Numbered from the stretch's first letter, positions 115-64,000 are shown. The stretch is 64,000 nucleotides of DNA from Alphaproteobacteria bacterium MarineAlpha5_Bin12 (GCA_002937855.1 PTKS01000005.1:64230-128229), one strand, 5' to 3'. Notes: generated from the letters alone by a model not told the origin. A program made the numbers and translations.

Positions 115-115
115 T

Positions 116-48480: not shown

Positions 48481-48585
48481 ACTTCTATTTCATTTCAACA
48501 TTACTCTTGGTTGGCGGTAGGATAATCTTGATGCAATACTTAGTAGTTTAAAAATTCTTTTTCAAATTCAAGTGTAAATCTGAAT

Positions 48586-48897
48586 TTATACTCCTGCGTT
48601 AAATTTAATTATTGTCATAATGTAAGTTATTAAAGTAACAAGAAAAATTAGAGGCATTATATTTTGTCGTTGTATCATCAATTCAAAGGTTTTAAGAATT
48701 GATATTCTAGTCATAATAATGTGTAGAATTATTCTAGCCACAAGAAGATAAAAATAACATTCAAGTAATAGACTTGGTTTAAGGGGATTAAATTTTCTCC
48801 ATCTTCTATAAGCAAGTATAACATAAAATTTGTATACTTTTTCAATCCATGGTAAATTTTTTTTATCTTGTTTTATTCTTTTTAATTTTGTTGTCAT
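48586..48897 (-). CDS. Hypothetical membrane protein, last gene of the minus-strand island operon
   Basis: 103 aa. Basic N-terminus followed by two to three hydrophobic segments. 4-nt overlap with the upstream DUF2130-type gene. No family recognised. Confidence 0.4.
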   Translation of the reverse strand: MTTKLKRIKQDKKNLPWIEKVYKFYVILAYRRWRKFNPLKPSLLLECYFYLLVARIILHIIMTRISILKTFELMIQRQNIMPLIFLVTLITYIMTIIKFNAGV

Positions 48898-50009
48898 TTT
48901 TTTTGGGGACTTGGTAATTCCAGTTTCTCGACATTTTTTATAGAATTCCCAGCAATACCTTTTAAAGACCCATAAATATTTGACGTACTTTTTATGATCG
49001 TTGTGTGTAGTTTCTCTCTTTTAGACCATTGTGTATTAAAGGATCTTTTTTCAGATTCTAGATCTTCTTGAAGCTTAATGAAGCTATTTACTATTGTCTC
49101 GACTTCATTACGAAATTCATGACTGATTATGTAATTATACATAAGAGAAGTTTTATTGGTTCTGTTTTTTTGAGATCCTATGATATTAGATACCTCGCAC
49201 GTCATAATGCGCAATGAATGAATAAGAAATTTAAATTGTGTAATGTTACATACCCATACGTTTTTTAATTGTTGTCCTGCAAGCAAATTTTTTGGAAGAA
49301 CATCAGTAACTATAACAGCAATCTGACATCCGCTGTTTTTTGCATCTTCCTTAACTTTTTCAATCCAAGAATTTTGAAATTCCTTAGCTCTTTTACTTTC
49401 TATACATATTTTACCAGCTATTTCTCCATTTATCATGACTTCATGCACAACATCAGCACCTCTTGCCCCTTTCTTTATTTCCGTTATGTTATCTTCTGGA
49501 AATTCTTTTCGCATCCATTCTTCAATTTGAATTTCCTGAGCTTCACCCTGAAGTTGCACAGAGCCTTGGCCAGCACGTTTTTGCATTTTTTCTAAATCGG
49601 AGCGTAATTGTTCTATTTTTATAGTTTTCTCTTGTATTAGCGTATCCTTCTTATCGAGCTCTAGTCCCAGTTTATCTTCATATTGCAGAGCAATCTCACT
49701 TTCCATTTCTTTATTTTTTCTCTCCAAAGACTGCATCTTTGTTTTCATTTTATTAAATTCTACTACTTTCTCAGAATAAGTTTTTAATTCTAAGTCCTTT
49801 TGTTTCATTTCTTCTTCATATTCATTAACAATTTTATTTTTCAATTTTTTTTCTGTTTCTTTTCGAGCCTTCTCTCTTTCCTGGTCAATCTTTTTGTCAA
49901 AAGTATGTTGCATTTCCTCTTGATAGGCAGAGGCTATAGCTTTTTTTATATCGACTTTCTCATGACAATGAGGACAGCGAATATGTTGAGTATCTTTATT
50001 TTGTGTCAT
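48894..50009 (-). CDS. DUF2130-type protein: N-terminal Zn-ribbon-like CPHC, long coiled coil, C-terminal PD-(D/E)XK-like domain
   Basis: 371 aa. IRCPHCHEKV, about 130 aa of K/E/Q-rich heptad-like sequence, then SVQLQGEAQE..FPED.ITEIKKGARGADVVHEV....GKICIESKRAKEF. I recognise this as the DUF2130 pattern with a D...E-S-K nuclease-fold motif. Confidence 0.7.
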   Translation of the reverse strand: MTQNKDTQHIRCPHCHEKVDIKKAIASAYQEEMQHTFDKKIDQEREKARKETEKKLKNKIVNEYEEEMKQKDLELKTYSEKVVEFNKMKTKMQSLERKNKEMESEIALQYEDKLGLELDKKDTLIQEKTIKIEQLRSDLEKMQKRAGQGSVQLQGEAQEIQIEEWMRKEFPEDNITEIKKGARGADVVHEVMINGEIAGKICIESKRAKEFQNSWIEKVKEDAKNSGCQIAVIVTDVLPKNLLAGQQLKNVWVCNITQFKFLIHSLRIMTCEVSNIIGSQKNRTNKTSLMYNYIISHEFRNEVETIVNSFIKLQEDLESEKRSFNTQWSKREKLHTTIIKSTSNIYGSLKGIAGNSIKNVEKLELPSPQKK

Positions 50010-50010: not shown

Positions 50011-50115
50011 TTAAAAGAACCATTTCATTAAGAAGTAAATTAAAACAACAAAACCAATGATAGAAATTATAAACGACAATGCACTACCAAAAAGACCAAA
50101 TATGAAGTTTAACAT
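50011..50115 (-). CDS. Unlisted 34-aa single-pass TM peptide (MLNFIFGLFGSALSFIISIIGFVVLIYFLMKWFF)
   Basis: Own translation. Its ATG overlaps the upstream stop as TAATG (50117-50113 on the minus strand). Its TAA stop (50013-50011) sits 1 nt before the DUF2130 ATG (50009). The ORF exactly fills the apparent 105-nt gap. Confidence 0.5.
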   Translation of the reverse strand: MLNFIFGLFGSALSFIISIIGFVVLIYFLMKWFF

Positions 50116-51068
50116 TATAATTCCTCTTGCATTTTTTTAGAGAAACAACTGAAATGAATAATAGTTTCATCTAACATAAGTATTGTGGCACAAATATCTT
50201 TATTATTAATTGTAAATAATTGACCCAGGCCAGAATTTTTACACTGTTTGGCAATAGAATTATTTGCATTAAAAATAATATTATTTGCATCTTTTATTGT
50301 TGGTATTAAATTATCTCTTTTTCTATTTTCCATTTCATCTAATGCATAACTTTTAAGTATTTGTGGATATAGTGATTGGAAAATATTTTTATTTGAAAAT
50401 AATTCAAAACCTAGAATATTTTTACCTATTGCAAAAATAACACCTATTGCATCTTCAGGCATTGTAAGATGCTTAAGATAATTTTCCATTAATAGTTCAT
50501 TATTTTTATAGAGATCTTGCATACTTTCACTTGAAGAGTAAGTATCAAAAGAATTAAATTTTTTATTTATTTGTTCCCATGTTTGTTCCTGATCTGCTGC
50601 TTCATTATAGTTTGAAGAAATATCTTCATCTATATTTTTTTGCATTTTTTCCATTTTTGCAAATCTACCTTTTGCAAACATAGAAGAATTTCGTGAAGCA
50701 AATTGTCTAGATGTTCTACTCCATCTACCTTTTTCACTGCAAAGAACATTTAGTTTCATTTTTGTTATTCCAGGAATAATAGAAGATACTGTTGCAATTC
50801 TATTTTGCTTTAATTCAAAACCAGCTATTGTTTGACCATCAATGATAAAAATTGGAGTAGTATGAAAATTTTCAACCTCAACTTCAGGTACATATCCTTC
50901 ATCACTAATTTCAGTAATTTTTAAATTATTTTCATTTAAAGCTTTTGTAAAATGAGTAATATTTTGTTTAATATTTTCACCTATAATGGGGAAAACACTC
51001 AAGTTTTTATAGGTTTTTAAAGTACCTATTGAAATTTTTTCAAGTGTATTGTTATTTTTTTTCATCAT
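50115..51068 (-). CDS. DUF6569/ARPP-1-like protein, first gene of the minus-strand island operon
   Basis: 317 aa. The N-terminal pattern NLSVFPI...F(T)KALNENNLKITEISDEGYVPEVEVEN....PIFIIDGQTIAGFELKQNR......IP....KLNVLCSEKGRWS matches my memory of this family's conserved core (L.VFPL, V.E.v.N, ll.dGE.l.GakQnR, v.C.E.gRW). Confidence 0.6.
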   Translation of the reverse strand: MMKKNNNTLEKISIGTLKTYKNLSVFPIIGENIKQNITHFTKALNENNLKITEISDEGYVPEVEVENFHTTPIFIIDGQTIAGFELKQNRIATVSSIIPGITKMKLNVLCSEKGRWSRTSRQFASRNSSMFAKGRFAKMEKMQKNIDEDISSNYNEAADQEQTWEQINKKFNSFDTYSSSESMQDLYKNNELLMENYLKHLTMPEDAIGVIFAIGKNILGFELFSNKNIFQSLYPQILKSYALDEMENRKRDNLIPTIKDANNIIFNANNSIAKQCKNSGLGQLFTINNKDICATILMLDETIIHFSCFSKKMQEEL

Positions 51069-51140
51069 TAAGTATTTTCTGTTAATCTTAACAATAAAAA
51101 TTTTTTTTTGATATTCTAGTGGTAGAAAGAAATTTTTTAT

Positions 51141-51165
51141 TTATTATTATTATTATTATTATTAT
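51141..51165. repeat. Perfect trinucleotide microsatellite (TTA/ATT), about 8 units
   Basis: Direct reading: ttattattattattattattattat, ending at the ATG (51164) of the ATPase gene. It lies inside the 95-nt divergent intergenic region. Confidence 0.9.
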
Positions 51166-53416
51166 GATTGAGAAATTTCAAATAAGTAATTTTAAAGGAT
51201 TTAATGAACCTTTATCTTTAGATATTGCACCTATTACACTTATTTTTGGACCTAATAGCGTTGGAAAATCTTCAATTATTGAAGGTTTGCAAATGATAAA
51301 ACACAGTGGTCCAAATGATCTACAAACATATCTAGAAAATAGACTTGATCTTGGAAGACCAGATGAAATTCTCTCCAGGCAAAATAAAAGCATTAATCCA
51401 AACATTACGTATTCATTTTCTTTTAATTATGCAGGTTTGAATAAACCAAAAGGACCACTTCTTAATAATCTTGAAAGTATTGGAATTAAGAAAAATTTTA
51501 ATCTTACAAAAGATAATATTTATGTGAATAATAAAATTTCTATATTATTTAATAAAAGATTATTTTTTTCACTTAAACTGGGATTCAAAACTAACAAACC
51601 TGAGGAGGTTGAAAAATTAAATCAATTAGAGGGTAAAATAGATTTAATTGATTTAGTACAAATTACTGACAGAATTCCAGAAAACGATCCTTTTTGGAGT
51701 ACATCGCAGCAAGCAGTTTTCACTATAGACACAATTAGTGATAATGATGAGTACTGGGATGATATTTTAAATTTTTTAACTAGAAAAAACATAAGTACAG
51801 AAATATCTAATAAAATTGACTTTGTTATTAATGAAAGAAATCAGAATTCAAGATCTAAGGAGATTACAAAAAGTGAATTAGAGACTTTAATCAAACAATA
51901 TAATGAAAATATAAATTTATTAAAAAAAGGAAATAAAGAAATAATAAATTTTATAAATAAAGTGATTATTGAAAAAGAGTTTAAAGATTTACCTTATAAA
52001 AAATATTTATTAAATTATTTAATCAATAATAAAAAATATGTAAAAAGTGATAAAATTATTTCTCTATTAAAAGAAAATGAAGATACAGTTCCTAATTTAA
52101 ATAAAAAAAGTAATCTTTGGGAGATGGTGACAAATGATTATATTGATAATCTAAATTTAATTAATCAAAAGGAAAAAAATGAGAAAGAAATATTAAAATA
52201 TCTAATCGAAGATATTAACAACAAACTTATCGCAGATGTTGGACTTTCATTAATAAGAGGCGTGACAATAAAAGGTGATAAGGAATATAAATTTGACATT
52301 AATGACGAGTTAATCAACGCTCAATTACAAGCTTCTTTAGATGAAGTAAAAAAAAATGTTGAGAAAATAGATGATATTAATTATTCTATTTCAACTGAAA
52401 ATAGTGATACTTTTAAAGATTTTTCTATAAAAAAACTTAGAGACATTAATATTTTAATTAGTGCATGGTCAAGAACATTACAATTAAGTCAAGAATTAGG
52501 TCCTACGGGTAGAAAAGAAATTAAATCTTCAATCATAAAAGATATTAAACGTAATCTTATTATTGAAGTGGAAGTCAAAGGTTCGGAAAAACAGAGAATT
52601 TTTTATTATAGAAAAAAAAATACACTAATTGATCTATTTACATTAGCAATTGAATCAAATAATCGTAAAGTTGATAATCTATTTCCCAATCTAGAAGAAA
52701 TTATTGATCATTGTGATTCTTTGATAGAAGAAAATCTTGGCAATTTTACTTTTGTCCCATGTTTTCGAAGTTATGAGAGAGTTTATAGATCTACAAGAAA
52801 ATCAATATCAGCAAATCTTGACATAAGTACTTCTACTGCAGATCTTGTCGAAACGTTATCAAGAGATAAGGAATTACTAAAAAAACTTAATGATTGGTTA
52901 AAACAATCAACGCTTAATTCTGAAATTGTTATAGAAGAAGGATCAGATTCAAGAATCATGTATGTCATAGAAGGAGAGAATAAAGTTAAAATAAATATTG
53001 CAGATGCTGGCTCAGGTATTCGAAATTTAATTCCTATCATTGCTGTTATCATTAACGCTAACAGAAAAATTCATCCCTATAGACGAAAAGGAATGGAGAC
53101 AAAGCCTATAATTGCCTTAGAAGAACCAGAGGTTAATTTACATCCCAGACTTCAAATTGATTTAGCAAGCTTTGTTGCAAATTTTAGTAATAAAAGAGAT
53201 TTTATTATTGAAACACATAGTGAGCTGATGATGAGAAAAATTCAACAACTTATAAGAGATAAGGAATCAAATCTTACCTATGAAGATGTTAAGGTTTATT
53301 GTGTTAGAAAAAACCAGGAAGGACATTATGTTGATGAAATAAGAATTGATAGCAATGGAAAGTTTCTTGATGAATGGCCTCATGGTTATTTTAATGAAAG
53401 AATTGAACTTCTGTAA
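51164..53416 (+). CDS. ABC/SMC-like (AAA_15/AAA_21-type) ATPase with very long inter-motif insert and DUF3696-like C-terminus
   Basis: The N-terminus FQISNFKGF...LIFGPNSVGKSS (Walker A at about 51248) is typical when translation starts at ATG 51164. Walker B/D-loop IALEEPEVNLHP lies at about 53111, with H-loop ETHS. The tail G.FLDEWPHGYFNER is DUF3696-like. About 610 aa of K/E/N-rich sequence separate Walker A from Walker B. The track start GTG 51119 is probably upstream of the real start. Confidence 0.8.
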   Translation: MIEKFQISNFKGFNEPLSLDIAPITLIFGPNSVGKSSIIEGLQMIKHSGPNDLQTYLENRLDLGRPDEILSRQNKSINPNITYSFSFNYAGLNKPKGPLLNNLESIGIKKNFNLTKDNIYVNNKISILFNKRLFFSLKLGFKTNKPEEVEKLNQLEGKIDLIDLVQITDRIPENDPFWSTSQQAVFTIDTISDNDEYWDDILNFLTRKNISTEISNKIDFVINERNQNSRSKEITKSELETLIKQYNENINLLKKGNKEIINFINKVIIEKEFKDLPYKKYLLNYLINNKKYVKSDKIISLLKENEDTVPNLNKKSNLWEMVTNDYIDNLNLINQKEKNEKEILKYLIEDINNKLIADVGLSLIRGVTIKGDKEYKFDINDELINAQLQASLDEVKKNVEKIDDINYSISTENSDTFKDFSIKKLRDINILISAWSRTLQLSQELGPTGRKEIKSSIIKDIKRNLIIEVEVKGSEKQRIFYYRKKNTLIDLFTLAIESNNRKVDNLFPNLEEIIDHCDSLIEENLGNFTFVPCFRSYERVYRSTRKSISANLDISTSTADLVETLSRDKELLKKLNDWLKQSTLNSEIVIEEGSDSRIMYVIEGENKVKINIADAGSGIRNLIPIIAVIINANRKIHPYRRKGMETKPIIALEEPEVNLHPRLQIDLASFVANFSNKRDFIIETHSELMMRKIQQLIRDKESNLTYEDVKVYCVRKNQEGHYVDEIRIDSNGKFLDEWPHGYFNERIELL

Positions 53417-53418
53417 AG

Positions 53419-54579
53419 ATGATTTATAATTATGCACTTACACATTATTGTTGTGAATCAGCAGTATTTGAGGAAAAAACATTTCAAAACTTAGTTAATC
53501 TTTTCCAAAAAACAAGGGATGAAAATATAATTTTAATTATAGATAAAAACAAATATTTAATTGATTGTTTGTTAAAAGGTTTAAAAAGTTATTATAAAAC
53601 TAGTTCTGATGAATATTCATATTTTACTGAAATTTTATTGACTTTAGATGATAAGAATAAAATTTATAGACATGATTTTATTTATGATGAAAATAATGTA
53701 AAAGAATTTATTGAATCAATTAAGAGTTCAGGAATTATTATAGATGCGATAATTGTAGACAAAGAAGAAGAAAATACATTTAAAAACGCAATACCTATTG
53801 AAAAGTTTTCTCTAGAACATCAAAATGATAAAGAAAGAATTACAGTAAATAAAAATGGTATCAACCTTATAGATCATGAAATCAATTCACTTGATACAAT
53901 TTATCAAAGAATTGTCTGGGATTCTGTTGTTTTTAAGTATTATGATTATAATTTAGGTAATGGAACATTTAAAACTGAAGAAATTCGAAATCTTGATTTA
54001 ATAAAAAACAACTCAGAGAATGAATCTTCCAAATGGAAAATTTTTAATAATGATATTACATCGCACAAATTAAGACAAATTAATAAATTTAAATTAGGAT
54101 TTCAAAATCTTATAAAAGCTATAAAATCCATAAGTAAAAAAATTAAAAAAGAAAAAAATGTCTTAATTGAGGTATTCACACCTCAACCTTTAAAAAATTT
54201 AAAATCACTAAATGCTGAAGATAAAATTAAAAATATGCAACAAAATCTTTTAATGCTTCAGCTTTTAGACGAAAAGATATGTAGCGAGATTCAAGAGGAA
54301 AATATTAGTTTAAAAATTTATTTTTATGACTCTTTATTAGATGGAAAAAGTAAATATGGTAGCGCCGAACATAATCGTCTGTTTTTTTCCTTGTCTTCCA
54401 ATCAAATTGATGTTGCAAAAGGCCTTGATATATATGACTTAAAAACAAAAGAAATTCAGCAAGGAAAATGGCGTTTTTTAGGTTCTAAGGAAGATACACA
54501 ACAGGACATAAGCAACAGAAACCCATTAGATATAAAGAAATACAAAGAAAATATTGAACATTATTTGGGAAATTTATAA
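53419..54579 (+). CDS. Hypothetical protein, tightly coupled partner of the ATPase (no recognisable domain)
   Basis: 386 aa ORF starting 2 nt after the ATPase stop. I found no nuclease, Toprim, HNH, TIR, Sir2 or TM motif. Coding status is supported by length and coupling only. Confidence 0.5.
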   Translation: MIYNYALTHYCCESAVFEEKTFQNLVNLFQKTRDENIILIIDKNKYLIDCLLKGLKSYYKTSSDEYSYFTEILLTLDDKNKIYRHDFIYDENNVKEFIESIKSSGIIIDAIIVDKEEENTFKNAIPIEKFSLEHQNDKERITVNKNGINLIDHEINSLDTIYQRIVWDSVVFKYYDYNLGNGTFKTEEIRNLDLIKNNSENESSKWKIFNNDITSHKLRQINKFKLGFQNLIKAIKSISKKIKKEKNVLIEVFTPQPLKNLKSLNAEDKIKNMQQNLLMLQLLDEKICSEIQEENISLKIYFYDSLLDGKSKYGSAEHNRLFFSLSSNQIDVAKGLDIYDLKTKEIQQGKWRFLGSKEDTQQDISNRNPLDIKKYKENIEHYLGNL

Positions 54580-54585
54580 ATTACA

Positions 54586-54615
54586 CTTGAATCTTAATTA
54601 GTATTTGCTATATTT
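54586..54615 (+). promoter_or_regulatory. Candidate promoter upstream of the sigma gene: CTTGAAT - N16 - TGCTATATT
   Basis: Direct reading. CTTGAA lies at 54586-54591 and TG-C-TATATT at 54606-54614, about 25 nt upstream of ATG 54639. It fits either an extended -10 sigma-70 promoter or a sigma-32-type CTTGAA/CTAT element. Confidence 0.35.
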
Positions 54616-54638
54616 AATTATAGGCAAAGCAGCCTGAA

Positions 54639-57178: not shown

Positions 57179-57195
57179 GATATGGTAAAAATATA

Positions 57196-60141
57196 ATGAG
57201 TGCAGATGATTATAGATCAGCAAGACAGGCTATAATAAATATTATTAAACCAGATAATATAGAGGAAAATAAAGTTCCTACTGAGCAAGAAGCTGAAAAA
57301 CTAATTGATCAAACAATTGATAATATTTTCAATTTACAACCTCGATGGAAAGAAACTGTCGATAGAAAAATACTCCTAAAAGATTTGTTGCAACAAATGA
57401 CCGTTTTATTTCCTGATAAAGAAGTTATTTTTAAAAAAAGTGAAGGTAGTGATCATAAAGAATGGTTTGAAGATAAATGGAAAGAAGGTAAAATTAAATG
57501 GAATTATTATAAGAGATACCAAGAATATCTTGAATATTATTCAGACATGCCACCTTTAACAATTTCGAAATTGGATAGATTAACTACTAAAATTATTGAA
57601 CAAATTGAAGATCCAGAAAGAGACGATACATCATGGGATATAAGAGGATCGGTTATAGGTCAGGTTCAATCTGGTAAAACAGCAAACTATATAGGTTTAA
57701 TTAATAAGGCTCTAGATGCTGGCTATAAAAGAATTATTATTTTATGTGGACTTAACAATGACTTGAGATCGCAAACTCAACAAAGAATAGAAGAGGGGGT
57801 TACAGGACGAGCTTATTCTCAATCTGCTGGTTTACAGAACTTTAAAGTAGGGGTTGGTAACATTAATAATTTTTCTGATATTGATGGAAAAGTTCAACTT
57901 TGTACCACAAGGGACGATAACGGTGATTTCAATACAACAAGAGCAAGATCATTTCAACCTTCAGATGACACCCCTGTTATTCTAATAATTAAAAAAAATG
58001 TATCTGTTCTTGAAAACGTTCTTTTGTGGATTCTCAAATATGAAAGCCAAAATACTTGGCATGAAGAAAAAGATCCTTGGGAGTGGAGACAAAGACTAAA
58101 AAAAGATATTGAATCAATTGAAATTGACAATCGCAAAACAAAAGTCCCTCGTGTCAAAAACAGACCTGTTCTTTTGATAGATGATGAATGTGATCAAGCA
58201 TCTATTGATACAAATCTTGATACTGACATGTTACAAGGTGAACCAGATCCTGAACATGACCCAACATTAACGAATAAGTTAATAAGAAGAATTCTTGATG
58301 CTTACGATAAATCTGTTTATGTTGGTTATACAGCTACGCCATATGCCAATGTTTTTATTGATCCAAGACTAAAATCAAAACAAGCTGGAAAGGATATCTT
58401 TCCAGAAGATTTTATAATTAACCTTCCTGCACCAAGTAGTTATATTGGTCCTGCGCAAATTTTTTCAGATATAGAAAAAAAATCTAACGTGATTAATAGT
58501 ATTTCAGATTATTTAGATGAAGGTGAAGATCCAAATGATAGAGCTGCATCAGGATGGATGCCTCCAAGGCATGATATTAATCATATACCACAATATAAAA
58601 ACCAAAATGAATTGCCAACTTCTCTCAAAGAAGCAATAATATCTTTTCTCATATCTTGTGCAGTAAGAAAATTAAGGGGTTATGATAAGGGAAATAGTAT
58701 GCTTGTTCATGTTTCAAGATTTGTATCTGTTTCAGAAAGAGCTGGAAACCAAATTCAAGAATTTATTAATGATCTAGAGTCTATTAATGTAGGAAATTTC
58801 TCTTATGAAAGTTTAATTAAAGAAATTTGGGATTCTAAATTTACTAATCATATAAATGATAATTTTAATTTTGATAAAAACAAAATTAAATTTGATGATG
58901 TTTATTTAATTATTCAGCAATCATTACAAACTAATAAAACTGTAGTAGAACTTGTTAATGGATCTGCTTTAAGCAAAAGTGAATACGACAAATCATTAAA
59001 AGCAAATAAAAATATTATTGCTGTAGGTGGACAAAGATTATCAAGAGGTCTTACGTTGAAGAGCCTTATGATTAGTTATTTTCTAAGAACAGCCAGAAGA
59101 CCACTTACTGATACAATGACACAAATGGGTCGATGGTTTGGATATAGACCTAACTATAGTGATTTGTGTAAACTTTACATAACTGATGAATTAGAGCAAA
59201 ACTTCAGAGACTTTGCGATTGCAGACTATGAGTTTAGAAATAAAATTGAAGAAATGAATGAGCAAGAGAGAACTCCTAAGAATTATCAATTAATGGTGCA
59301 AAGAGATCCAAACTATGCTTTATCTTCAAGAAACAAGCTTCACTATACAAGTGTGGTAAGACTGGATTTTAGTGATTATCATGGACAAACAATTGTTCTC
59401 CATAAGGATAATTCTTCGGAAGCTAAAAATAATAGAGATAGTGTAAGAGATTTAGTTCTCTCTTTAAATAAACCAGATCAAAATAGAGAAAATAAAAATA
59501 ATTGTTATTTATGGAAAAAAACTGAAAGTAAAAAAATTATTAAATTTTTACAGAAATATAAAACACACGAAAATAATACAAAAATTCATACTGAAAGTTT
59601 TATTGATTATATTCAAAGGATGAATAATTATGGTGAGTTAAAATTTTGGTCCGTTGGTATAATTTCCAAGACATCAACTGAAGATAAAGTAAGATTAATA
59701 CATAATGATTTAGTTAACTTTCCTGTTAATTGTATGGAAAGATCACCAAATAAAAAAAATAAAAAAACTGATGATAAAAATACACATACTATAGGAATTT
59801 TGGATCAAGAAATTGATGAATCCTTTGATTTAAATAATGCAGAATATAATGCTGCTATAGAAAAATGGGAATTGGAAGATGGTAGAAGATTAAATAAATC
59901 AAAAAGATTTTATTACAGATGGGCAAGAGGACGTGCATATTTAGATAACTATTATCAAGATATAGAAAACGATAATTATCATAGAGGTCAATTATTAATT
60001 TATCCTATTATAAATCCAAAAGAACCAAAAAAAGATCAATTACCTATGATAGGAATAACTATAACTTTTCCTGGATTAAGTACTAATGATAGCAGAGAAG
60101 TTATTATGTCAAACTTTCAAGCAGAAAGAATACATGAATAA
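57196..60141 (+). CDS. Z1 domain protein (SF2 helicase-like NTPase)
   Basis: 981 aa. Walker A GQVQSGKTANY and Walker B LLIDDECDQAS. The Z1 signature is VGGQRLSRGLTLKSLMISYFLR....DTMTQMGRWFGYRPNYSDLCKLY. Confidence 0.85.
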   Translation: MSADDYRSARQAIINIIKPDNIEENKVPTEQEAEKLIDQTIDNIFNLQPRWKETVDRKILLKDLLQQMTVLFPDKEVIFKKSEGSDHKEWFEDKWKEGKIKWNYYKRYQEYLEYYSDMPPLTISKLDRLTTKIIEQIEDPERDDTSWDIRGSVIGQVQSGKTANYIGLINKALDAGYKRIIILCGLNNDLRSQTQQRIEEGVTGRAYSQSAGLQNFKVGVGNINNFSDIDGKVQLCTTRDDNGDFNTTRARSFQPSDDTPVILIIKKNVSVLENVLLWILKYESQNTWHEEKDPWEWRQRLKKDIESIEIDNRKTKVPRVKNRPVLLIDDECDQASIDTNLDTDMLQGEPDPEHDPTLTNKLIRRILDAYDKSVYVGYTATPYANVFIDPRLKSKQAGKDIFPEDFIINLPAPSSYIGPAQIFSDIEKKSNVINSISDYLDEGEDPNDRAASGWMPPRHDINHIPQYKNQNELPTSLKEAIISFLISCAVRKLRGYDKGNSMLVHVSRFVSVSERAGNQIQEFINDLESINVGNFSYESLIKEIWDSKFTNHINDNFNFDKNKIKFDDVYLIIQQSLQTNKTVVELVNGSALSKSEYDKSLKANKNIIAVGGQRLSRGLTLKSLMISYFLRTARRPLTDTMTQMGRWFGYRPNYSDLCKLYITDELEQNFRDFAIADYEFRNKIEEMNEQERTPKNYQLMVQRDPNYALSSRNKLHYTSVVRLDFSDYHGQTIVLHKDNSSEAKNNRDSVRDLVLSLNKPDQNRENKNNCYLWKKTESKKIIKFLQKYKTHENNTKIHTESFIDYIQRMNNYGELKFWSVGIISKTSTEDKVRLIHNDLVNFPVNCMERSPNKKNKKTDDKNTHTIGILDQEIDESFDLNNAEYNAAIEKWELEDGRRLNKSKRFYYRWARGRAYLDNYYQDIENDNYHRGQLLIYPIINPKEPKKDQLPMIGITITFPGLSTNDSREVIMSNFQAERIHE

Positions 60142-61147
60142 TGAAAGTACTGATATTTTTAAAGATACTTTAGATTCAGTTAAAACTTCTATTAAACAAT
60201 CAGGATTGATAGCTAAACTACTTCCTTTAGAAAATAACAATAGGATATTTGCAGCTTATAAATTACCAGAAAAACAAATTAGCCTTATTGCAGAAGTTCC
60301 AACTAAATTTGTTAAATTTGAAAAGCAATTTGAATCAAAAGGATTCAGCGTTACAAATAAAAAAAAAGATACCAATAATGATGTTACGCAAGTTATTATT
60401 TCTTTGATTGATAATAATTATAAGGATGTTTTTTTTGAAATTACTGAGCTTTTTATTAAAAAAATTAAAAATATAAAAGATGACAGAGATTTTTATAATA
60501 TCCTTATTGAAAGAATAGAAATATATTCAAATTTTTTTGATAAACATTCAAAACAAGGATTACTTATTAATGCACAACAAGGCCTTTATGCTGAATTAGA
60601 TATTATGGAAAATTTTTTCATCAAATATTTTAACATACCTCTTACTCTTGAAATGTGGCAAGCCCCTCAAAGTGGGTTACATGATTTTACTTATAAGGGT
60701 GTTTCTATGGAAGTAAAATCAACTCATAAATTTCCAGCTCAAGACGTAAGTATTTCAAGCGAATTTCAACTAAATGACAAAAGAGTTTCTAATTTATATC
60801 TTGCTGTACTAGAGGTTAAGCGAGGATCAATTGGAGGAGAAAGTATAAGAGAAAAAATTGAAAAAATTAGAGAATTAATTGCGTCTCAAAACTCAGAATT
60901 AAATACTAAATTCAATGATCTTCTTAATAAATATGGTTATTATGATGCTCATTCACACAACTATTATGTAAGTTTTAAAACTAATTTAGTTCATTATTAC
61001 AAAGTTGTGGAAAATTTTCCACGAATACTACCTGACAGAATTTTAGATGGTGTTAAAAGTATTAGATATAAAATAGATTTAAATAAATGTGTAAATTTTA
61101 TCACTGAAGGAAGTTCTATTAAACAAAATTTTAAAGATGTCGTATAA
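60134..61147 (+). CDS. PD-(D/E)XK motif protein (restriction-endonuclease fold)
   Basis: GLHDF...VSMEVKST gives the D...E-x-K motif. The ATG at 60134 overlaps the Z1 stop (ATGAATAA), and the track ORF start at 60086 is an alternative. The position between Z1 and AIPR is as in the known neighbourhood. Confidence 0.7.
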   Translation: MNNESTDIFKDTLDSVKTSIKQSGLIAKLLPLENNNRIFAAYKLPEKQISLIAEVPTKFVKFEKQFESKGFSVTNKKKDTNNDVTQVIISLIDNNYKDVFFEITELFIKKIKNIKDDRDFYNILIERIEIYSNFFDKHSKQGLLINAQQGLYAELDIMENFFIKYFNIPLTLEMWQAPQSGLHDFTYKGVSMEVKSTHKFPAQDVSISSEFQLNDKRVSNLYLAVLEVKRGSIGGESIREKIEKIRELIASQNSELNTKFNDLLNKYGYYDAHSHNYYVSFKTNLVHYYKVVENFPRILPDRILDGVKSIRYKIDLNKCVNFITEGSSIKQNFKDVV

Positions 61148-63167
61148 TCAAGAACTTAAAAATTTTTCTTATAAAATTCATAGTAGTTCAATTGAACTTG
61201 ATACTTTTAAAGAAAATGGATTTTCACATGCTTGTTGTCAAATACTTTCTGATTCAGGAGTTATAGAAAACTATGAAATTTTACATTTTGAAAAAAAAAT
61301 TTACAACACTGAAATTAAAATTAATGGATATGGACTTGATGATGAAAAAGAAAATTTAGATTTATTTGTATGTCATTTTGAAGGATCAATTAATCCAAAA
61401 AAAATTGAATCATCTAAATTAAAAACTGCAGGAAAAAAAATATCCAATTTTTTTAAAGAATCTCTTAAAGGATTATCTAATAATCTTCCAAAGAATTCTG
61501 ATCCTTATTCTGTAGCAAGATTAATTAAAGATATAGAAAAAAAACTTAACAGAGTAAGGATATTTATTTTTACAGATGGAACTAGTGATATTAAAACCAT
61601 TATCACTGATAAAGTTTCGGGTATTGATGTTACTATTGAATTTTTTGATCTTGGAAAATTATATGAATTGTCGGTTCTTGGAAGTGTAACTGATAATATA
61701 AAAGTAAAATTTGATACAAATATAGACAAGATTGAATGTATTAAGTCTTCTACTACACCAAAAGACTTAGAAAGTTATCTTGCTATTATCCCTGGAGAAA
61801 CTTTATATAGACTTTATGAAGCTTGGGGATCTCAATTAATGGAACTAAATGTAAGATCATTTCTTCAATCAACAGGAAAAGTAAATAAAGGTATTAGAAC
61901 AACACTTCTAGAAGAACCAAACATGTTTTTTTCTTACAATAATGGAATAGCTGCAACCGCAGAAAAAATTAAATTTTCAATAGGGGAAGATGGCAGGCAA
62001 TATATAAATGAAATAATTGGATTTCAGATAGTAAATGGAGGGCAAACAACAGCAAGTATTCATAGATCAAAAAAAGTAGATGGTATTGATTTGAGTGAAA
62101 TTTCAGTACCAACAAAAATTTCTGTTATAAAAAAAGAAGATATACGTAAGGTGGTTCCTTTAATTTCTCGTTATTCAAATAGTCAGAATGCTGTTAAACA
62201 ATCTGATTTTCATTCTGATAATGTTTATCACAAAAAAATTGATGAAATAAGTAAAAAAATTTTTATCCCTGGGGAAAGTGGTAGATGGTTTTTTGAAAGA
62301 AAATCTGGTGAATATCAAAATGAAAAATTTCGACATAGTGCTAATTCAGATAGTAAAAATAGATTTAATAAACTCATTCCAACATTTAGAAAAATTTCAA
62401 AGGAAGATTTGGCTAAATACATTAATTGTTGGGAAGGATTGCCTTATGTTGTCTGTACCGGAGTGCAGAAAAATTTTATTCATTTTATGAATAACCATGC
62501 TGTTGAAGCAGTTAAAGAAAAGATAATTGATAATGATTATTTCAAAGATATCATTTCTCAATCAATAATTTTTAGAAGTGTTGAAAAAATAATTAAGTCA
62601 TCTGATGTACCAGCATATAGATCTCAAGTTTGTACTTATACAGTTTCATTACTTTCTAATTTATCTAGAAAAAATTTTAATCTTGCAGCAGTTTGGCAGG
62701 ATCAACAAATTTCTAATGAATTAAATGAAATGTTAATTTTATGGGTTAATAAAGTATATGATAAACTTCGAAAAAGTGCAGACTCTAAAAATAAAAATCC
62801 CTCTGAATGGTTTAAAAAAATGGAATGTTGGAAAGAATTAAAAAATCAAAATTTTTCAATCTCAGGTAATAATGTTCCTATTGAACTAAAAGGTTCAAAA
62901 AAAGTTATTAAAACGAAAAAATTTATTGTTGATGATGATTATAAAGAAAATATGAGAAAATGTAAAAGTGTCTCTCCTAATGGGTGGCTTAAAATAGCTG
63001 AATTCATTCAAGATGATCCTGACTTAAGCAAAGAATTTCATGGCATGTGTTTAACTCTTAAAGATATGGCTAATGATGATTGGTATGAAGACCCAACTCC
63101 TCATATTGCTGAAGAAGCTTCTGCTATAATTGATTTAGCAGTTGATCAAGGTATAATTAGAATTTAA
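61137..63167 (+). CDS. AIPR (abortive infection phage resistance) family protein
   Basis: 676 aa. The core VRSFLQ.TGKVNKGIRTTL...P..FFSYNNGIAATA...IVNGGQTTASI is the AIPR signature. 11-nt overlap with the preceding gene. Confidence 0.85.
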   Translation: MSYNQELKNFSYKIHSSSIELDTFKENGFSHACCQILSDSGVIENYEILHFEKKIYNTEIKINGYGLDDEKENLDLFVCHFEGSINPKKIESSKLKTAGKKISNFFKESLKGLSNNLPKNSDPYSVARLIKDIEKKLNRVRIFIFTDGTSDIKTIITDKVSGIDVTIEFFDLGKLYELSVLGSVTDNIKVKFDTNIDKIECIKSSTTPKDLESYLAIIPGETLYRLYEAWGSQLMELNVRSFLQSTGKVNKGIRTTLLEEPNMFFSYNNGIAATAEKIKFSIGEDGRQYINEIIGFQIVNGGQTTASIHRSKKVDGIDLSEISVPTKISVIKKEDIRKVVPLISRYSNSQNAVKQSDFHSDNVYHKKIDEISKKIFIPGESGRWFFERKSGEYQNEKFRHSANSDSKNRFNKLIPTFRKISKEDLAKYINCWEGLPYVVCTGVQKNFIHFMNNHAVEAVKEKIIDNDYFKDIISQSIIFRSVEKIIKSSDVPAYRSQVCTYTVSLLSNLSRKNFNLAAVWQDQQISNELNEMLILWVNKVYDKLRKSADSKNKNPSEWFKKMECWKELKNQNFSISGNNVPIELKGSKKVIKTKKFIVDDDYKENMRKCKSVSPNGWLKIAEFIQDDPDLSKEFHGMCLTLKDMANDDWYEDPTPHIAEEASAIIDLAVDQGIIRI

Positions 63168-63199
63168 TAATTTAAACAAAAAGAAAATTATAATTTCAT

Positions 63200-64000
63200 A
63201 TGTATATTAAAATCGTAGATCTATTTGCTGGAATAGGGGGTATAAGATTAGGAGTCGAAAATGCTGCAAAAAAACTTAAGATAAAAACAGAAACAGTTTT
63301 TGCATGTGATATCAATGAAAAAGCAAGATCAGTCTATAGAGAAAATTTTATAAAACCCGATATTCAGGGCGACATAAGATCAATTGATAATTATAAAAAA
63401 ACTATTGGCAAACATGATCTTTTGCTAGCAGGTTTTCCTTGCCCGCCTTTTTCTCTTGCCGGTGTTGTTAAGAGAAAATTTTTAAACAAAAAACATGGAT
63501 TTGCAGATCGTAAAGGAAACTTATTTCCAGATATTATTAAAGTTTTGGAACAAACAAAACCAAAAGCATTTCTTTTAGAAAATGTTAGTCATCTTAAGAG
63601 TCATAATAAGGGTAAAACTTTTGCTAGAATATTAAAAGCTCTCGAAGATGTAAAGTATAAAACCATTAAAACAGAAATTTTAAACGCTAAAGATTTTGGT
63701 TTACCTCAATCAAGAAAACGTGTTTTTATTATAGGATTTAGAAAAAAAACTCTATTTAATTTTCCTTCATCAATAAATTCAAAAACCTCTGTAAATGATA
63801 TTTTACAAAAGAAAGTGGATGACAAGTATTTTATAACAAAAAAATTATGGAAGAGTCACAAAGAAAGAAAAGAAAGAAACAAAAGAAGAGGGGTAGGATT
63901 TGGCTATAGTCTTGTGAAAAATACTGACAGTTATACTCGCACATTAAGTGCTAGATATTACAAGGATGGCAGCGAGATACTTCTTAAAGTAAAAGGAAGT
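63200..64000 (+). CDS. dcm: DNA (cytosine-5)-methyltransferase, 3'-truncated by the window edge
   Basis: Own translation from ATG 63200, open to the window end (267 codons). Motif I is IVDLFAGIGGIRLG, motif IV GFPCPPFSLAG, motif VI LLENV, motif VIII QSRKRVFIIG, then TLSARYYKDGSE. Confidence 0.9.
   Translation, partial: MYIKIVDLFAGIGGIRLGVENAAKKLKIKTETVFACDINEKARSVYRENFIKPDIQGDIRSIDNYKKTIGKHDLLLAGFPCPPFSLAGVVKRKFLNKKHGFADRKGNLFPDIIKVLEQTKPKAFLLENVSHLKSHNKGKTFARILKALEDVKYKTIKTEILNAKDFGLPQSRKRVFIIGFRKKTLFNFPSSINSKTSVNDILQKKVDDKYFITKKLWKSHKERKERNKRRGVGFGYSLVKNTDSYTRTLSARYYKDGSEILLKVKGS

What the first reader, a model, noticed from the sequence alone, without database searches (positions are those of the whole stretch)
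48481..64000. Abrupt core-to-accessory transition: a defence-island-like region of at least 15.5 kb with no visible mobility genes
Up to 48480 every gene is a recognisable housekeeping or metabolic function. From 48586 to the window edge all 13 ORFs are hypothetical, nuclease-fold, NTPase, abortive-infection or methyltransferase genes. These comprise DUF2130, a DUF6569-like protein, an ABC-like ATPase, GHKL, Z1, PD-(D/E)XK, AIPR and Dcm. I see no integrase, transposase, tRNA or direct repeat at the 48.5 kb junction. That pattern resembles the hypervariable regions of streamlined marine genomes more than a classical integrative element. The right boundary lies outside the window.
Basis: partly seen in the sequence, partly recalled or inferred. 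Interest (0 to 1): 0.55.

Follow-up and report, generated by a model that had tools for sequence, protein, structure and literature searches.

The report
Strain-variable phage-defence island, three population states
A 19-kb block of predicted anti-phage genes lies between two ordinary genes in a small-genome marine bacterium; in wild populations the site is empty, holds this block, or holds a very divergent copy with the same gene order, apparently swapped by ordinary recombination rather than by a mobile element.

Summary
The window comes from the Tara Oceans MAG 'Alphaproteobacteria bacterium MarineAlpha5_Bin12'.

- **Core side.** Every gene I checked left of 48480 is housekeeping or metabolic.
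- **Accessory status.** At least 14 contigs from 12 samples of conspecific strains join the 2OG oxygenase stop codon directly to the CIA30 gene.
- **Extent.** The accessory segment runs from 48481 to about 67600 (19.1 kb, 15 genes). It ends 3.6 kb beyond the window and also includes a bactofilin, VIT/VWA and sortase module.
- **Mobility.** There is no integrase, tRNA, direct repeat or compositional shift.
- **Second haplotype.** Conspecific strains carry the same gene order at the same site with only 28–54% amino-acid identity in the centre, rising to 92–100% at the edges.
- **Third version.** The same 12-gene order occurs in an unrelated genomic context.

This is a flexible genomic island that is present in some strains and replaced in others. 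It carries a sigma–TerB–MzaBCDE–Dcm variant of the known Mza system plus linked modules.

The parts
47887..48480 (+). 2OG-Fe(II) oxygenase (prolyl 4-hydroxylase-like). Last core gene; the island begins immediately after its stop codon.
   Evidence: Pfam 2OG-FeII_Oxy_3, 5e-11. More than 5000 marine homologues. Homology to the empty-site contigs L149 and L150 ends exactly at 48480.
48481..48585 (.). Left junction spacer
   Evidence: No tRNA, no Rfam match, no repeat shared with the right junction, no significant fold. Contig L109 ends at 48509.
48586..48897 (-). 103-aa protein with a hydrophobic C-terminal half (read by eye as membrane-spanning). Overlaps the DUF2130 stop by 4 nt.
   Evidence: No family hit. 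A homologous 101-aa ORF sits at the same position, with the same 4-nt overlap, in version C (L181 5297-5602; 30% identity, E 2e-15).
48894..50009 (-). DUF2130 protein. Shared by haplotypes A and B and contains the left recombination boundary.
   Evidence: PF09903, 1.5e-50. Haplotype B diverges from 49197 on, with 49 nucleotide changes but only 10 of 279 residues changed. A and B are 92.5% identical in amino acids.
49197..49752 (.). Left breakpoint zone, where population haplotypes start to diverge and assemblies break
   Evidence: Contigs end at 49733 (L011, L015, L107), 49751 (L009, L010) and 49899 (L016). L011, L015 and L107 join the haplotype-B contig L173 over 449 nt (L011 and L015 at 100%, L107 with one mismatch).
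50115..51068 (-). ARPP-1 family protein (PF20208)
   Evidence: Pfam, 2.5e-66. Identity 54% to version B and 61.5% to version C at the same position.
51164..53416 (+). ABC/OLD-type ATPase (AAA_15/AAA_21). The mechanical ORF starts at GTG 51119; the likely start is ATG 51164.
   Evidence: Pfam AAA_15, 1.4e-20. PADLOC PDC-M55A 1e-37, NsnB 3e-33, AriA 6e-25. Weak PtuA matches in the PDB. Walker A, signature, Walker B and H-loop are invariant in versions A, B and C.
53419..54579 (+). Orphan 386-aa partner of the ATPase; candidate effector of unknown fold
   Evidence: No Pfam, PADLOC, NCBIfam or PDB hit. Only 15 hits among 1.84 billion representative proteins. AlphaFold pLDDT 58 and no Foldseek match. 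Always directly downstream of the ATPase in versions A, B and C.
54639..55457 (+). Compact sigma-70-family protein; MzaA-like (sigma domain only)
   Evidence: Sigma70_r2 and r4. TIGR02937 scores 68.6 bits against a cut-off of 42.9. Its haplotype-B homologue (33% identity, E 4e-25) hits PADLOC MzaA at 2e-12. It occupies the position of the Ank-sigma MzaA in plasmid Mza loci.
55494..55865 (+). TerB-domain protein. Its stop lies 2 nt before the mzaB start.
   Evidence: PF05099, 8e-7, above the Pfam cut-off. Conserved between sigma and MzaB in versions B (37% identity) and C (61%). Absent from the four plasmid Mza loci inspected.
55868..57178 (+). MzaB-like GHKL (MutL/MORC-type) ATPase
   Evidence: PADLOC MzaB 1.4e-50. 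NCBIfam MzaB 1.3e-71, but 241 bits against an equivalog cut-off of 850. GHKL N, G1 and G2 boxes are invariant.
57196..60141 (+). MzaC-like Z1-domain SF2 helicase-like protein
   Evidence: PADLOC MzaC 1.7e-145. NCBIfam MzaC 9.5e-181. Walker A GxGKT, the DDE motif and QxxGR are invariant.
60086..61147 (+). MzaD-like PD-(D/E)XK protein (DUF4420)
   Evidence: Pfam, 7e-56. PADLOC MzaD 5e-16. NCBIfam MzaD 4e-36. D200...E209-x-K211 is invariant.
61137..63167 (+). MzaE-like AIPR protein. DNA homology between haplotypes A and B resumes inside it, at 61285.
   Evidence: AIPR 1e-82 and AIPR_N 3e-37. PADLOC MzaE 2.4e-94. Identity profile.
63200..64000 (+). C5 cytosine DNA methyltransferase (Dcm), cut by the window end. 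The full gene is 322 aa and ends at 64168.
   Evidence: PF00145, 2.4e-66. The full gene is present in L001 and L110. PADLOC DrmMII and type II MTase models. 85% identical to the haplotype-B Dcm. Six assemblies break at 63970-64149.

Best explanation
**What it is**
- This is a flexible genomic island of about 19.1 kb. It runs from window 48481 to about 67600, that is 3.6 kb beyond the window end.
- It sits between the 2OG-Fe(II) oxygenase gene and a CIA30-family gene of a low-GC marine alphaproteobacterium (the MarineAlpha5_Bin12 population).
- In the wild population the site exists in at least three states:
  1. Empty (2OG|CIA30).
  2. Haplotype A, which is this window.
  3. Haplotype B, a cassette with identical gene order but only 28-54% protein identity in its centre.

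**What is shown**
- The three states, the boundaries, the absence of integrase, tRNA and repeats, and the gradient of divergence towards the centre.

**How it is exchanged (inferred)**
- Versions are gained, lost and swapped by homologous recombination in the conserved edges. These are the core flank and DUF2130 on the left, and Dcm and the sortase module on the right. Site-specific integration is not involved.
- The versions persist because different cassettes give different phage-resistance spectra (frequency-dependent selection).

**Cargo (domains shown, functions inferred)**
1. A seven-gene variant of the Mza anti-phage system.
   - A compact sigma-70-family MzaA-like regulator plus a TerB protein would control expression. 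TerB could act as a sensor or anti-sigma-like partner.
   - The MzaB GHKL ATPase, the MzaC Z1 helicase-like protein and the MzaD PD-(D/E)XK nuclease would act on invading DNA.
   - MzaE (AIPR) would be an abortive-infection-type component.
   - The adjacent Dcm methylase would mark self DNA, as in GHKL-helicase restriction-modification systems.
2. A two-gene module of an ABC/OLD-type ATPase plus an orphan 386-aa partner. It probably works like PARIS, Septu or Gabija, with an ATPase sensor and an associated effector.
3. ARPP-1, DUF2130 and a small membrane protein on the opposite strand. Their role is unknown, but they travel with the rest.
4. A bactofilin, VIT/VWA and sortase surface-protein module at the right end.
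For: **Empty site**
- L149 and L150 and 10 further contigs carrying 2OG allele P0126 show 2OG-CIA30-Fur-ABC-3.
- Left-flank homology ends at 48480 (96.4-97.2% nucleotide identity). Right-flank homology resumes at 67667 (98.3-98.6%).

**Junctions are real**
- The left junction is seen in 10 or more independent assemblies.
- The Dcm|bactofilin junction is seen in L001, L110 and L165-L168.

**Population signal**
- Coverage proxy in ERZ6778577: 21.4x, 10.8x and 22.5x for left flank, island A and right flank.
- Island A has 0-1 mismatch over 12.8 kb in six assemblies, while the core flank carries SNP patches.

**Haplotype B**
- L173-L180, from at least 7 samples, have the same order.
- Per-gene identities A versus B: DUF2130 92.5, ARPP-1 54, ATPase 33-47, partner 28, sigma 33, TerB 37, MzaB 42, MzaC 34, MzaD 34, MzaE 52, Dcm 85, bactofilin 100.
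- Boundary substitutions are mostly synonymous.
- Haplotypes A and B co-occur in the same samples: ERZ909145, ERZ2782928, ERZ27286485 and ERZ842402.

**Version C**
- It has the same 12-gene order in another genome and context.

**Mza assignment**
- PADLOC MzaB, C, D and E and NCBIfam MzaB, C and D.
- The haplotype-B sigma hits MzaA.
- Plasmid loci have the order sigma-GHKL-Z1-PDEXK-AIPR with Dcm nearby.
- Catalytic motifs are intact.

**Literature**
- mzaABCDE is described as a validated defence system in which mzaA is a sigma factor (PMC9523054, citing Gao et al. 2020).
- GHKL proteins with SF2 helicases, methylases, Vsr and RE-fold nucleases are described as restriction-modification systems (PMC2292703).
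- Replacement islands exchanged by homologous recombination show boundary peaks of synonymous substitutions (PMC4033161).
Against: - No function was tested. Defence is inferred from family membership and gene neighbourhood only.
- NCBIfam MzaB, C and D scores are far below the equivalog cut-offs (241/850, 603/1500, 125/420). These are distant relatives of the validated system.
- The window's own sigma protein does not reach PADLOC MzaA at E 0.01 or better.
- No restriction endonuclease accompanies Dcm in haplotypes A and B, although version C has EcoRII-C and Vsr. The self/non-self role of Dcm is therefore unproven.
- Polarity cannot be decided, that is, whether the island lineage gained it or the empty lineage lost it. 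The nearest other lineage (77% nucleotide identity) has different synteny.
- The empty-site strains are slightly more divergent in the flanks (96-98%) than haplotypes A and B are from each other. Presence or absence may therefore be sub-clade-specific rather than strain-by-strain.
- True read recruitment was not run. Coverage comes from contig names in a single assembly.
Confidence: 0.85

Rival explanations
1. The twelve genes from the small membrane protein to Dcm form one integrated multi-component defence system, an 'extended Mza'. The ABC ATPase and its partner, ARPP-1, DUF2130 and TerB would be obligate parts, not separate systems stacked side by side.
For: - The same order and orientation occur in three versions that share only 26-66% protein identity. 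One of them lies in a different genomic context.
- Relative identities are congruent across genes: A-C exceeds A-B and B-C from ARPP-1 to MzaE.
- The partner family is tiny, with 15 hits in 1.84 billion representatives. All three contexts examined are this cassette.
- Spacing is tight between ATPase and partner, and between TerB and MzaB.
Against: - The four plasmid Mza or Mza-like loci inspected lack the ATPase, its partner, TerB, ARPP-1 and DUF2130.
- Inheritance as a block from one ancestor, followed by diversification, would give the same pattern without any functional coupling.
- Only three versions were examined.
Confidence: 0.3
2. The region is ancestral to the species and was deleted in the 'empty-site' sub-lineage. 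The polymorphism would then reflect loss, not acquisition.
For: - Island GC equals core GC (0.280 against 0.277).
- There are no insertion scars or repeats.
- The empty-site strains form a slightly more divergent flank group, at 96-98% identity.
- Another relative, L139 (94% nucleotide identity), has VIT/VWA-sortase next to CIA30.
Against: - In empty strains the junction is a clean 6-nt spacer between intact genes.
- The nearest outgroup (L147) has neither arrangement, so polarity cannot be settled.
- Either way the region is accessory, and the coexistence of A and B is not explained by deletion.
Confidence: 0.25
3. It is a classical integrative mobile element (prophage remnant, ICE or integrase-borne island) whose integrase and att site lie beyond the window.
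For: Before extension the right end was unseen. Defence islands often ride on such elements.
Against: - The whole segment is now seen up to CIA30 and has no integrase, transposase, relaxase or phage genes.
- There is no tRNA and no flanking direct repeat.
- No relative of the AIPR protein was found in 2.9 million viral contigs.
- The breakpoints lie at a stop codon on the left and at the 5' end of the CIA30 gene on the right.
Confidence: 0.03
4. The junction is an assembly or binning chimera joining an alphaproteobacterial contig to foreign DNA.
For: The same island sequence on a 17-kb contig was binned into a Marinimicrobia MAG, GCA_002719835.1.
Against: - That 17-kb contig itself carries the alphaproteobacterial 2OG, TPR and hydrolase genes.
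- Both junctions recur in many independent assemblies made with different assemblers.
- The Marinimicrobia assignment is therefore the more likely error.
Confidence: 0.02
5. The cassette is not anti-phage. It would be a stress-response or DNA-repair regulon, with an alternative sigma factor, TerB, a MutL-like ATPase, a helicase and a nuclease.
For: - The top sigma hits are RpoH-like.
- TerB is named for tellurite resistance.
- The GHKL protein has weak MutL similarity.
Against: - Presence or absence varies between strains, and allelic diversification is extreme. Both are typical of conflict systems, not of repair genes.
- There are specific HMM matches to MzaB-E and to AIPR.
- The cassette is linked with Dcm, Vsr and EcoRII in relatives.
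Confidence: 0.07

Closest known systems
Mza anti-phage system (mzaABCDE; Gao et al. 2020, as cited in PMC9523054; PADLOC MzaA-E, NCBIfam MzaB-E)
   Same: - The order is sigma-family protein, GHKL ATPase, Z1 protein, PD-(D/E)XK DUF4420 protein, AIPR protein.
- There are HMM matches to MzaB, C, D and E.
- The haplotype-B sigma matches MzaA.
- Catalytic motifs are conserved.
   Different: - The sigma protein is 272 aa. It has the sigma domain only, without the roughly 400-residue N-terminal region and ankyrin repeats seen in plasmid MzaA.
- A TerB gene is inserted between sigma and MzaB.
- A Dcm methylase closes the operon.
- Scores are far below the NCBIfam equivalog cut-offs.
- Identity to plasmid MzaC is about 30-34%.
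GHKL (MORC/paraMORC) plus SF2 helicase restriction-modification systems (Iyer, Abhiman and Aravind 2008, PMC2292703)
   Same: - A GHKL ATPase, a helicase-like protein and an RE-fold nuclease are linked to a cytosine methylase.
- Version C and the plasmid loci also carry Vsr and a restriction endonuclease.
   Different: - Haplotypes A and B have Dcm but no separate restriction endonuclease or Vsr.
- The AIPR, sigma and TerB components are additional.
Replacement and additive flexible genomic islands of marine bacteria (Lopez-Perez et al. 2014, PMC4033161; metagenomic islands of SAR11 and HIMB59, PMC10734472)
   Same: - The chromosomal site is fixed and different versions occur in conspecific strains.
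- There are no mobility genes.
- The boundaries show peaks of mostly synonymous substitutions.
- The island is under-covered in metagenomes.
   Different: - Classical replacement islands encode exposed surface structures. Here the replaced cargo is an intracellular defence cassette, with a surface sortase module attached.
- The site can also be completely empty.
- The two versions are homologous in gene order but extremely divergent.
ABC/OLD-type ATPase two-gene defence systems (PARIS AriA/AriB, Septu PtuA/PtuB, Gabija GajA/GajB; PADLOC candidates PDC-M55 and Nsn)
   Same: - The ATPase has AAA_15/AAA_21 domains and intact Walker A, signature, Walker B and H-loop motifs.
- It is followed immediately by a second gene.
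- PADLOC hits: PDC-M55A 1e-37, NsnB 3e-33, AriA 6e-25, GajA and PtuA weaker.
   Different: - The partner has no detectable Toprim, HNH, helicase or any other known domain.
- It belongs to a family with about 15 detectable members.
Defence islands on integrative elements (integrase- or tRNA-associated islands, prophage and satellite hotspots)
   Same: Several defence-type modules are clustered, and presence varies between strains.
   Different: There is no integrase, tRNA, att repeat, phage gene or compositional shift.

Membership tests
Mza system (mzaABCDE) | MzaB: GHKL/MutL-type ATPase | tested here: met
   PADLOC MzaB 1.4e-50 over 420 of 500 profile positions. NCBIfam MzaB 1.3e-71, but below the equivalog cut-off. 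GHKL boxes are conserved.
Mza system (mzaABCDE) | MzaC: Z1-domain helicase-like protein | tested here: met
   PADLOC MzaC 1.7e-145. NCBIfam MzaC 9.5e-181. Pfam Z1 1.5e-59.
Mza system (mzaABCDE) | MzaD: PD-(D/E)XK motif protein (DUF4420) | tested here: met
   PADLOC MzaD 4.9e-16, NCBIfam MzaD 3.8e-36, Pfam DUF4420 7e-56. The D...ExK motif is invariant.
Mza system (mzaABCDE) | MzaE: AIPR family protein | tested here: met
   PADLOC MzaE 2.4e-94. Pfam AIPR and AIPR_N.
Mza system (mzaABCDE) | MzaA: sigma-factor protein at the head of the operon | tested here: inconclusive
   - A sigma-70-family gene is at the right position.
- It has no PADLOC MzaA hit at E 0.01 or better.
- Its haplotype-B homologue (33% identity, E 4e-25) hits MzaA at 2e-12, over the C-terminal sigma part of the profile only.
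- Positive controls from plasmids hit MzaA at 1e-72 and 6e-58.
- It lacks the N-terminal Ank region.
Mza system (mzaABCDE) | Protects against phage | not testable with these tools
   Only the literature statement that mzaABCDE is validated (PMC9523054, citing Gao et al. 2020). Nothing was tested for this variant.
Replacement/additive flexible genomic island | Same chromosomal site holds different gene content in conspecific strains | tested here: met
   Empty site, haplotype A and haplotype B, all between the same flanks.
Replacement/additive flexible genomic island | Boundaries show raised, mostly synonymous substitution (homologous-recombination signature) | tested here: met
   There are 49 nucleotide differences but only 10 of 279 amino-acid changes in DUF2130 from 49197 on. 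The identity gradient runs 92% to 64% on the left and 63% to 100% on the right.
Replacement/additive flexible genomic island | Under-recruitment in metagenomes relative to the flanks | tested here: inconclusive
   Only contig-name coverage in one SPAdes assembly (21.4x, 10.8x, 22.5x) and recurrent assembly breaks. Reads were not mapped.
Integrase-borne genomic island / prophage / ICE | Integrase or recombinase, an att direct repeat, often a tRNA target | tested here: not met
   None among the 15 island genes. No tRNA. No shared repeat of 12 nt or more.
Type II restriction-modification system (Dcm plus REase) | Cognate restriction endonuclease next to the methylase | tested here: not met
   In haplotypes A and B, Dcm is flanked by MzaE and bactofilin. 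Version C does have Vsr and EcoRII-C.
PARIS / Septu / Gabija | ABC/OLD-type ATPase with the family's specific partner or fusion (AriB Toprim/DUF4435; PtuB HNH; GajA Toprim plus GajB helicase) | tested here: not met
   The ATPase matches AriA, PtuA and GajA models only weakly to moderately. The partner matches no AriB, PtuB or GajB model and no domain at all.

The most novel reading that the evidence does not exclude
The whole 12-gene block would be a single, previously undescribed composite immune system. Its order is: small membrane protein, DUF2130, ARPP-1, ABC ATPase, orphan partner, compact sigma, TerB, MzaB-E, Dcm. It would be an extended Mza type confined to low-GC marine bacteria. Natural populations would maintain it as an ancient balanced polymorphism: two alleles with 28-54% identity plus a null allele at one locus. 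Alleles would be exchanged only by homologous recombination, which would make it an intracellular analogue of O-antigen replacement islands.
Probability: 0.3. Interest if true: 0.75.

Novelty: new variant of a known kind. Interest (0 to 1): 0.6.

Why it matters
- **Streamlined genomes.** SAR11-like marine bacteria are thought to carry few defence systems and to escape phages mainly through surface variation.
- **What this locus shows.** A compact chromosome can host a large intracellular defence cassette that behaves like a replacement island: null, version A and version B coexist in the same water samples.
- **A testable case.** It gives a concrete locus for testing constant-diversity or frequency-dependent models of phage-host coexistence in the ocean.
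- **A new Mza architecture.** The system here has a compact sigma, TerB and Dcm, and is linked to an ABC ATPase whose partner belongs to a near-orphan family. These are candidates for new defence components.
- **Practical point.** Assemblers and binners fail here. Contigs break at both edges, and one copy was binned into another phylum.

Tried and rejected
- **Genome-collection scan, luciferase-like monooxygenase as anchor.** It returned only Pelagibacteraceae single-cell genomes at 70-74% identity. They share just the luciferase-hydrolase pair, so they gave no synteny and no empty site.
- **Metagenome scan, VIT/VWA protein as anchor.** It returned one identical contig. The rest were 60-68% relatives that share only the bactofilin-VIT/VWA-sortase module.
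- **Structure of the 386-aa partner.** The four-sequence alignment gave mean pLDDT 58.5. Foldseek against the PDB gave nothing at E below 0.4, and the PDB sequence search gave nothing.
- **Promoter and terminator scan.** It was uninformative in this AT-rich DNA: 104 promoter-like sites against 100.6 expected.
- **Repeat search.** Only low-complexity AT-rich chance matches, and no junction repeats.
- **Rfam at both junctions.** Nothing.
- **Viral-contig scan with the AIPR protein.** No relatives.
- **Literature.** Searches for ARPP-1 and DUF2130 returned only unrelated eukaryotic ARPP papers. Gao et al. 2020 is not held, so its content is cited second-hand through PMC9523054.
- **Ideas considered and dropped.**
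  - Low GC as an island marker: core LPS regions have lower GC than the island.
  - TerB as a split-off domain of long MzaA: plasmid MzaA has ankyrin repeats, not TerB.

Full report
**1. Source and observation**

The window's proteins are identical to those of the MAG 'Alphaproteobacteria bacterium MarineAlpha5_Bin12' (PPR412xx). The same sequence occurs in many Tara Oceans assemblies. GC is 23-34% throughout.

Left of 48480 the genes I checked are housekeeping or metabolic.
- Positions 116-36311 hold PRA isomerase, OMP decarboxylase, ribosomal protein S1, cytidylate kinase, EPSP synthase, Lpt proteins, glycosyltransferases, ThrRS, IF3, L20, PheRS, LepA, exonuclease VII, lipid A enzymes, UbiA and cytochrome oxidase.
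- Positions 37590-48480 hold threonine synthase, M16 peptidase, DsbD, a redoxin, Ldh_2, enoyl-CoA hydratase, a CoA-binding protein, a luciferase-like monooxygenase, an alpha/beta hydrolase, a TPR protein and a 2OG-Fe(II) oxygenase.

From 48586 the content switches to 12 ORFs:
- a 103-aa protein with a hydrophobic C-terminal half and no family hit
- DUF2130
- ARPP-1 (PF20208)
- an AAA_15/AAA_21 ATPase
- a 386-aa protein with no hit
- a sigma-70 r2/r4 protein
- TerB
- a GHKL ATPase
- a Z1 protein
- DUF4420
- AIPR
- a C5 methyltransferase cut by the window end

It counts 13 ORFs where there are 12. It omits the sigma and TerB genes. Its 'DUF6569-like' protein is the family Pfam now calls ARPP-1 (that PF20208 was formerly DUF6569 is my recollection, not a tool result).

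There is no tRNA or tmRNA. There is no Rfam match at the junctions and no meaningful repeat.

**2. The right end**

Contig L001 is 100% identical to window 51137-64000 and continues past it. In window-extended coordinates it reads:
- Dcm ends at 64168.
- Bactofilin is at 64330-64806.
- A VIT/VWA protein is at 64806-66956.
- A sortase is at 67064-67528.
- CIA30 (from 67601), Fur and an ABC-3/ABC_tran metal transporter follow.

One search shows NCBI naming the sortase 'class GN sortase'. The Dcm|bactofilin junction recurs in L110 and in L165-L168.

**3. Is it accessory?**

No closely related reference genome was available.
- The genome scan found only Pelagibacteraceae single-cell genomes at 70-74% identity, sharing just two genes.
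- The metagenome scan found only distant sortase modules.
- The 2OG protein has one 83% relative and then drops to 60%.

Population variants settled the question.
- Close 2OG alleles (4-6 substitutions) lie on contigs in which the 2OG stop codon is followed, after TTTATT, by CIA30, Fur and ABC-3. These are L149 and L150 and 10 of the 12 contigs read for allele P0126.
- Those 12 displayed contigs come from 12 different sample accessions.
- Their flanks are 96.4-97.2% (left) and 98.3-98.6% (right) identical to the window lineage.
- Left homology stops exactly at 48480 and right homology resumes at 67667, just inside CIA30.

The accessory segment is therefore 48481 to about 67600. That is 19.1 kb and 15 genes, including the sortase module.

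Supporting signals:
- In SPAdes assembly ERZ6778577 the left-flank contig has coverage 21.4, the island-A contig 10.8 and the right-flank contig 22.5.
- Independent assemblies break at 48509, 49733, 49751 and 49899, and at 63970-64149.
- Island A has 0-1 mismatch over 12.8 kb in six assemblies, whereas the core flank has SNP patches.
- Island GC (0.280) equals core GC (0.277).

**4. A second, deeply divergent version at the same site**

Left-flank contigs L011, L015 and L107 diverge from the window from 49197 on, at 9% of nucleotides, mostly synonymous (269 of 279 residues identical). They join contig L173 over 449 nt: L011 and L015 at 100%, L107 with one mismatch.

L173-L180, from at least 7 samples, carry DUF2130, ARPP-1 (318 aa), ATPase (658), partner (348), sigma (286), TerB (124), GHKL (486), Z1 (1004), DUF4420 (345), AIPR (676), Dcm (322), bactofilin and VIT/VWA.

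Amino-acid identity to the window version:

| Gene | A vs B identity (%) |
|---|---|
| DUF2130 | 92.5 |
| ARPP-1 | 54 |
| ATPase | 33-47 (ends only) |
| Partner | 28 |
| Sigma | 33 |
| TerB | 37 |
| MzaB | 42 |
| MzaC | 34 |
| MzaD | 34 |
| MzaE | 52 |
| Dcm | 85 |
| Bactofilin | 100 |

Nucleotide identity falls from 89-92% at 49.25-49.75 kb to 64% at 50.75 kb. On the other side it climbs from 63-75% in mzaE through 83-87% in dcm to 98-100% from 64.0 kb.

Haplotypes A and B co-occur in the same samples: ERZ909145, ERZ2782928, ERZ27286485 and ERZ842402. L016 indicates at least one further recombinant allele.

This matches the published signature of replacement flexible genomic islands exchanged by homologous recombination (PMC4033161).

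**5. A third version elsewhere**

The 386-aa partner has only three full-length homologues by word-index search. It has 15 hits, mostly fragments, in an exhaustive profile search of 1.84 billion representative proteins.

One homologue, P0341 (45% identity), lies on a 149-kb single-cell-genome contig, CACJRM010000002.1 (L181). That contig has different flanking genes but the same block:
- an unannotated 101-aa ORF, 30% identical to the 103-aa protein (E 2e-15), with the same 4-nt overlap
- DUF2130 and ARPP-1
- ATPase and partner
- sigma and TerB
- GHKL, Z1, DUF4420 and AIPR
- then Vsr, EcoRII-C and Dcm

A-C identities are 43-66% and B-C identities are 26-53%. These are congruent across genes. 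The 12-gene order is therefore conserved across deep divergence and across genomic contexts.

**6. What the cargo is**

*Mza part*
- PADLOC matches MzaB (1e-50), MzaC (2e-145), MzaD (5e-16) and MzaE (2e-94).
- NCBIfam matches MzaB, C and D, but far below the equivalog cut-offs.
- mzaABCDE is described as a validated defence system in which mzaA is a sigma factor (PMC9523054, citing Gao et al. 2020).
- The closest plasmid loci (Thalassospira, Neorhizobium) show an Ank-sigma70 protein of 627-750 aa, then GHKL, Z1, PD-(D/E)XK and AIPR, with a Dcm and restriction endonuclease nearby.
- Agrobacterium and Hymenobacter loci have Vsr, Dcm, GHKL, Z1, PD-(D/E)XK and AIPR without a sigma gene.
- The window's 272-aa sigma protein passes the sigma-70 superfamily model and sits at the MzaA position, but misses the PADLOC MzaA model. 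Its haplotype-B homologue hits MzaA at 2e-12 over the sigma part only.
- TerB is absent from the four plasmid loci but conserved in versions A, B and C.
- GHKL, helicase and PD-(D/E)XK motifs are invariant across five sequences.
- The GHKL, SF2 helicase, methylase, Vsr and RE-fold-nuclease neighbourhood was described as a restriction-modification type by Iyer et al. (PMC2292703).

*ATPase module*
- Walker A, signature, Walker B and H-loop are conserved.
- The best PADLOC models are PDC-M55A, NsnB and AriA. PtuA matches in the PDB are weak.
- The partner has no detectable domain or fold. It does have invariant acidic and His/Arg positions.

*Other genes*
- Functions of ARPP-1, DUF2130 and the small membrane protein remain unassigned.

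**7. Mechanism**

Shown:
- the three-state polymorphism
- the exact boundaries
- the absence of mobility features
- the divergence gradient
- the conserved gene order
- the intact motifs

Inferred:
- exchange by homologous recombination in the conserved edges
- maintenance by phage-driven frequency-dependent selection
- Mza acting as a methylation-aware, GHKL/helicase/nuclease-based system with an AIPR abortive component under sigma/TerB control
- the ATPase-partner pair acting as a sensor-effector pair

Not decided:
- gain versus loss polarity
- whether the 12 genes form one system or several that are co-inherited

**8. Verdict**

The kind of feature is known: a flexible or defence island and an Mza system. 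Four things are new:
- the architecture (compact sigma, TerB, MzaB-E and Dcm, with a linked ABC ATPase and near-orphan partner, ARPP-1, DUF2130 and the small membrane protein)
- its conservation in three deeply divergent versions
- its null/A/B polymorphism within one species
- its occurrence in a streamlined marine lineage

Noticed in passing
window 48481-64000 (contig PBEW01000049.1 of GCA_002719835.1; L100): The same island sequence, together with the alphaproteobacterial 2OG, TPR and hydrolase genes, sits on a 17-kb contig binned as 'Candidatus Neomarinimicrobiota/Marinimicrobia'. This is almost certainly a binning error. In the MarineAlpha5_Bin12 MAG itself the contig breaks inside dcm, and the remainder is on a separate 6.6-kb contig.
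   Followed up: partly
window 46737-47298 (alpha/beta hydrolase gene): A dense patch of about 20 SNPs recurs in different combinations among otherwise near-identical assemblies (L008-L015). The surrounding 9 kb has almost none. It looks like a mosaic of small recombination tracts in a core gene about 1.5 kb from the island.
   Followed up: no
window 51119-51163: Several assemblies have a 3-nt insertion at 51141, in an AT-rich run upstream of the probable true ATPase start (ATG 51164). This explains the 765, 766 and 750-aa gene calls for the same gene. It lies in the 95-bp divergent intergenic region between ARPP-1 and the ATPase.
   Followed up: partly
extended coordinates about 64175-64212 (L001 about 13039-13076), just after the dcm stop: A GC-rich hairpin, unusual in this 28% GC DNA. 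MFE is -16.7 kcal/mol and z is -3.1 against shuffles. It is probably the terminator of the mza-dcm operon. It has no Rfam match.
   Followed up: partly
extended coordinates 64330-67528 (L001 13194-16392): A bactofilin, VIT/VWA and sortase module is part of the accessory segment. It is absent from empty-site strains and 100% identical between haplotypes A and B. Modules 60-68% identical occur in many marine metagenome contigs without flank synteny.
   Followed up: partly
L181 5297-5602 (- strand): An unannotated 101-aa ORF (TTG start) in a public single-cell genome is homologous to the window's 103-aa protein and overlaps the DUF2130 stop by 4 nt. The gene is missed in that record's gene calls.
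   Followed up: yes
L098 (ERZ25070185 ctg134181, 36 kb): A DUF2130 homologue (63% identity) is followed by two small hydrophobic ORFs (93 and 56 aa). It is preceded by a fragment I read by eye as HerA/DUF87-like, with no ARPP-1 or Mza genes. The pairing of DUF2130 with a small membrane protein may therefore be a unit of its own.
   Followed up: partly
window 45627-47439 versus L018-L097: The luciferase-like monooxygenase plus alpha/beta hydrolase pair is the only synteny shared with 80 Pelagibacteraceae and HIMB59 genomes, at 70-74% and about 40% amino-acid identity. This organism is not close to any GTDB species representative reached by that scan, even though some MAGs of the species are labelled Pelagibacteraceae.
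   Followed up: no
window 1-14000 and 23000-31000: The lowest-GC stretches of the window (0.23-0.25) are core genes: shikimate and nucleotide metabolism, Lpt, glycosyltransferases, lipid A synthesis, MsbA-like ABC transporter and UbiA. GC content is therefore not a usable island marker in this genome.
   Followed up: yes
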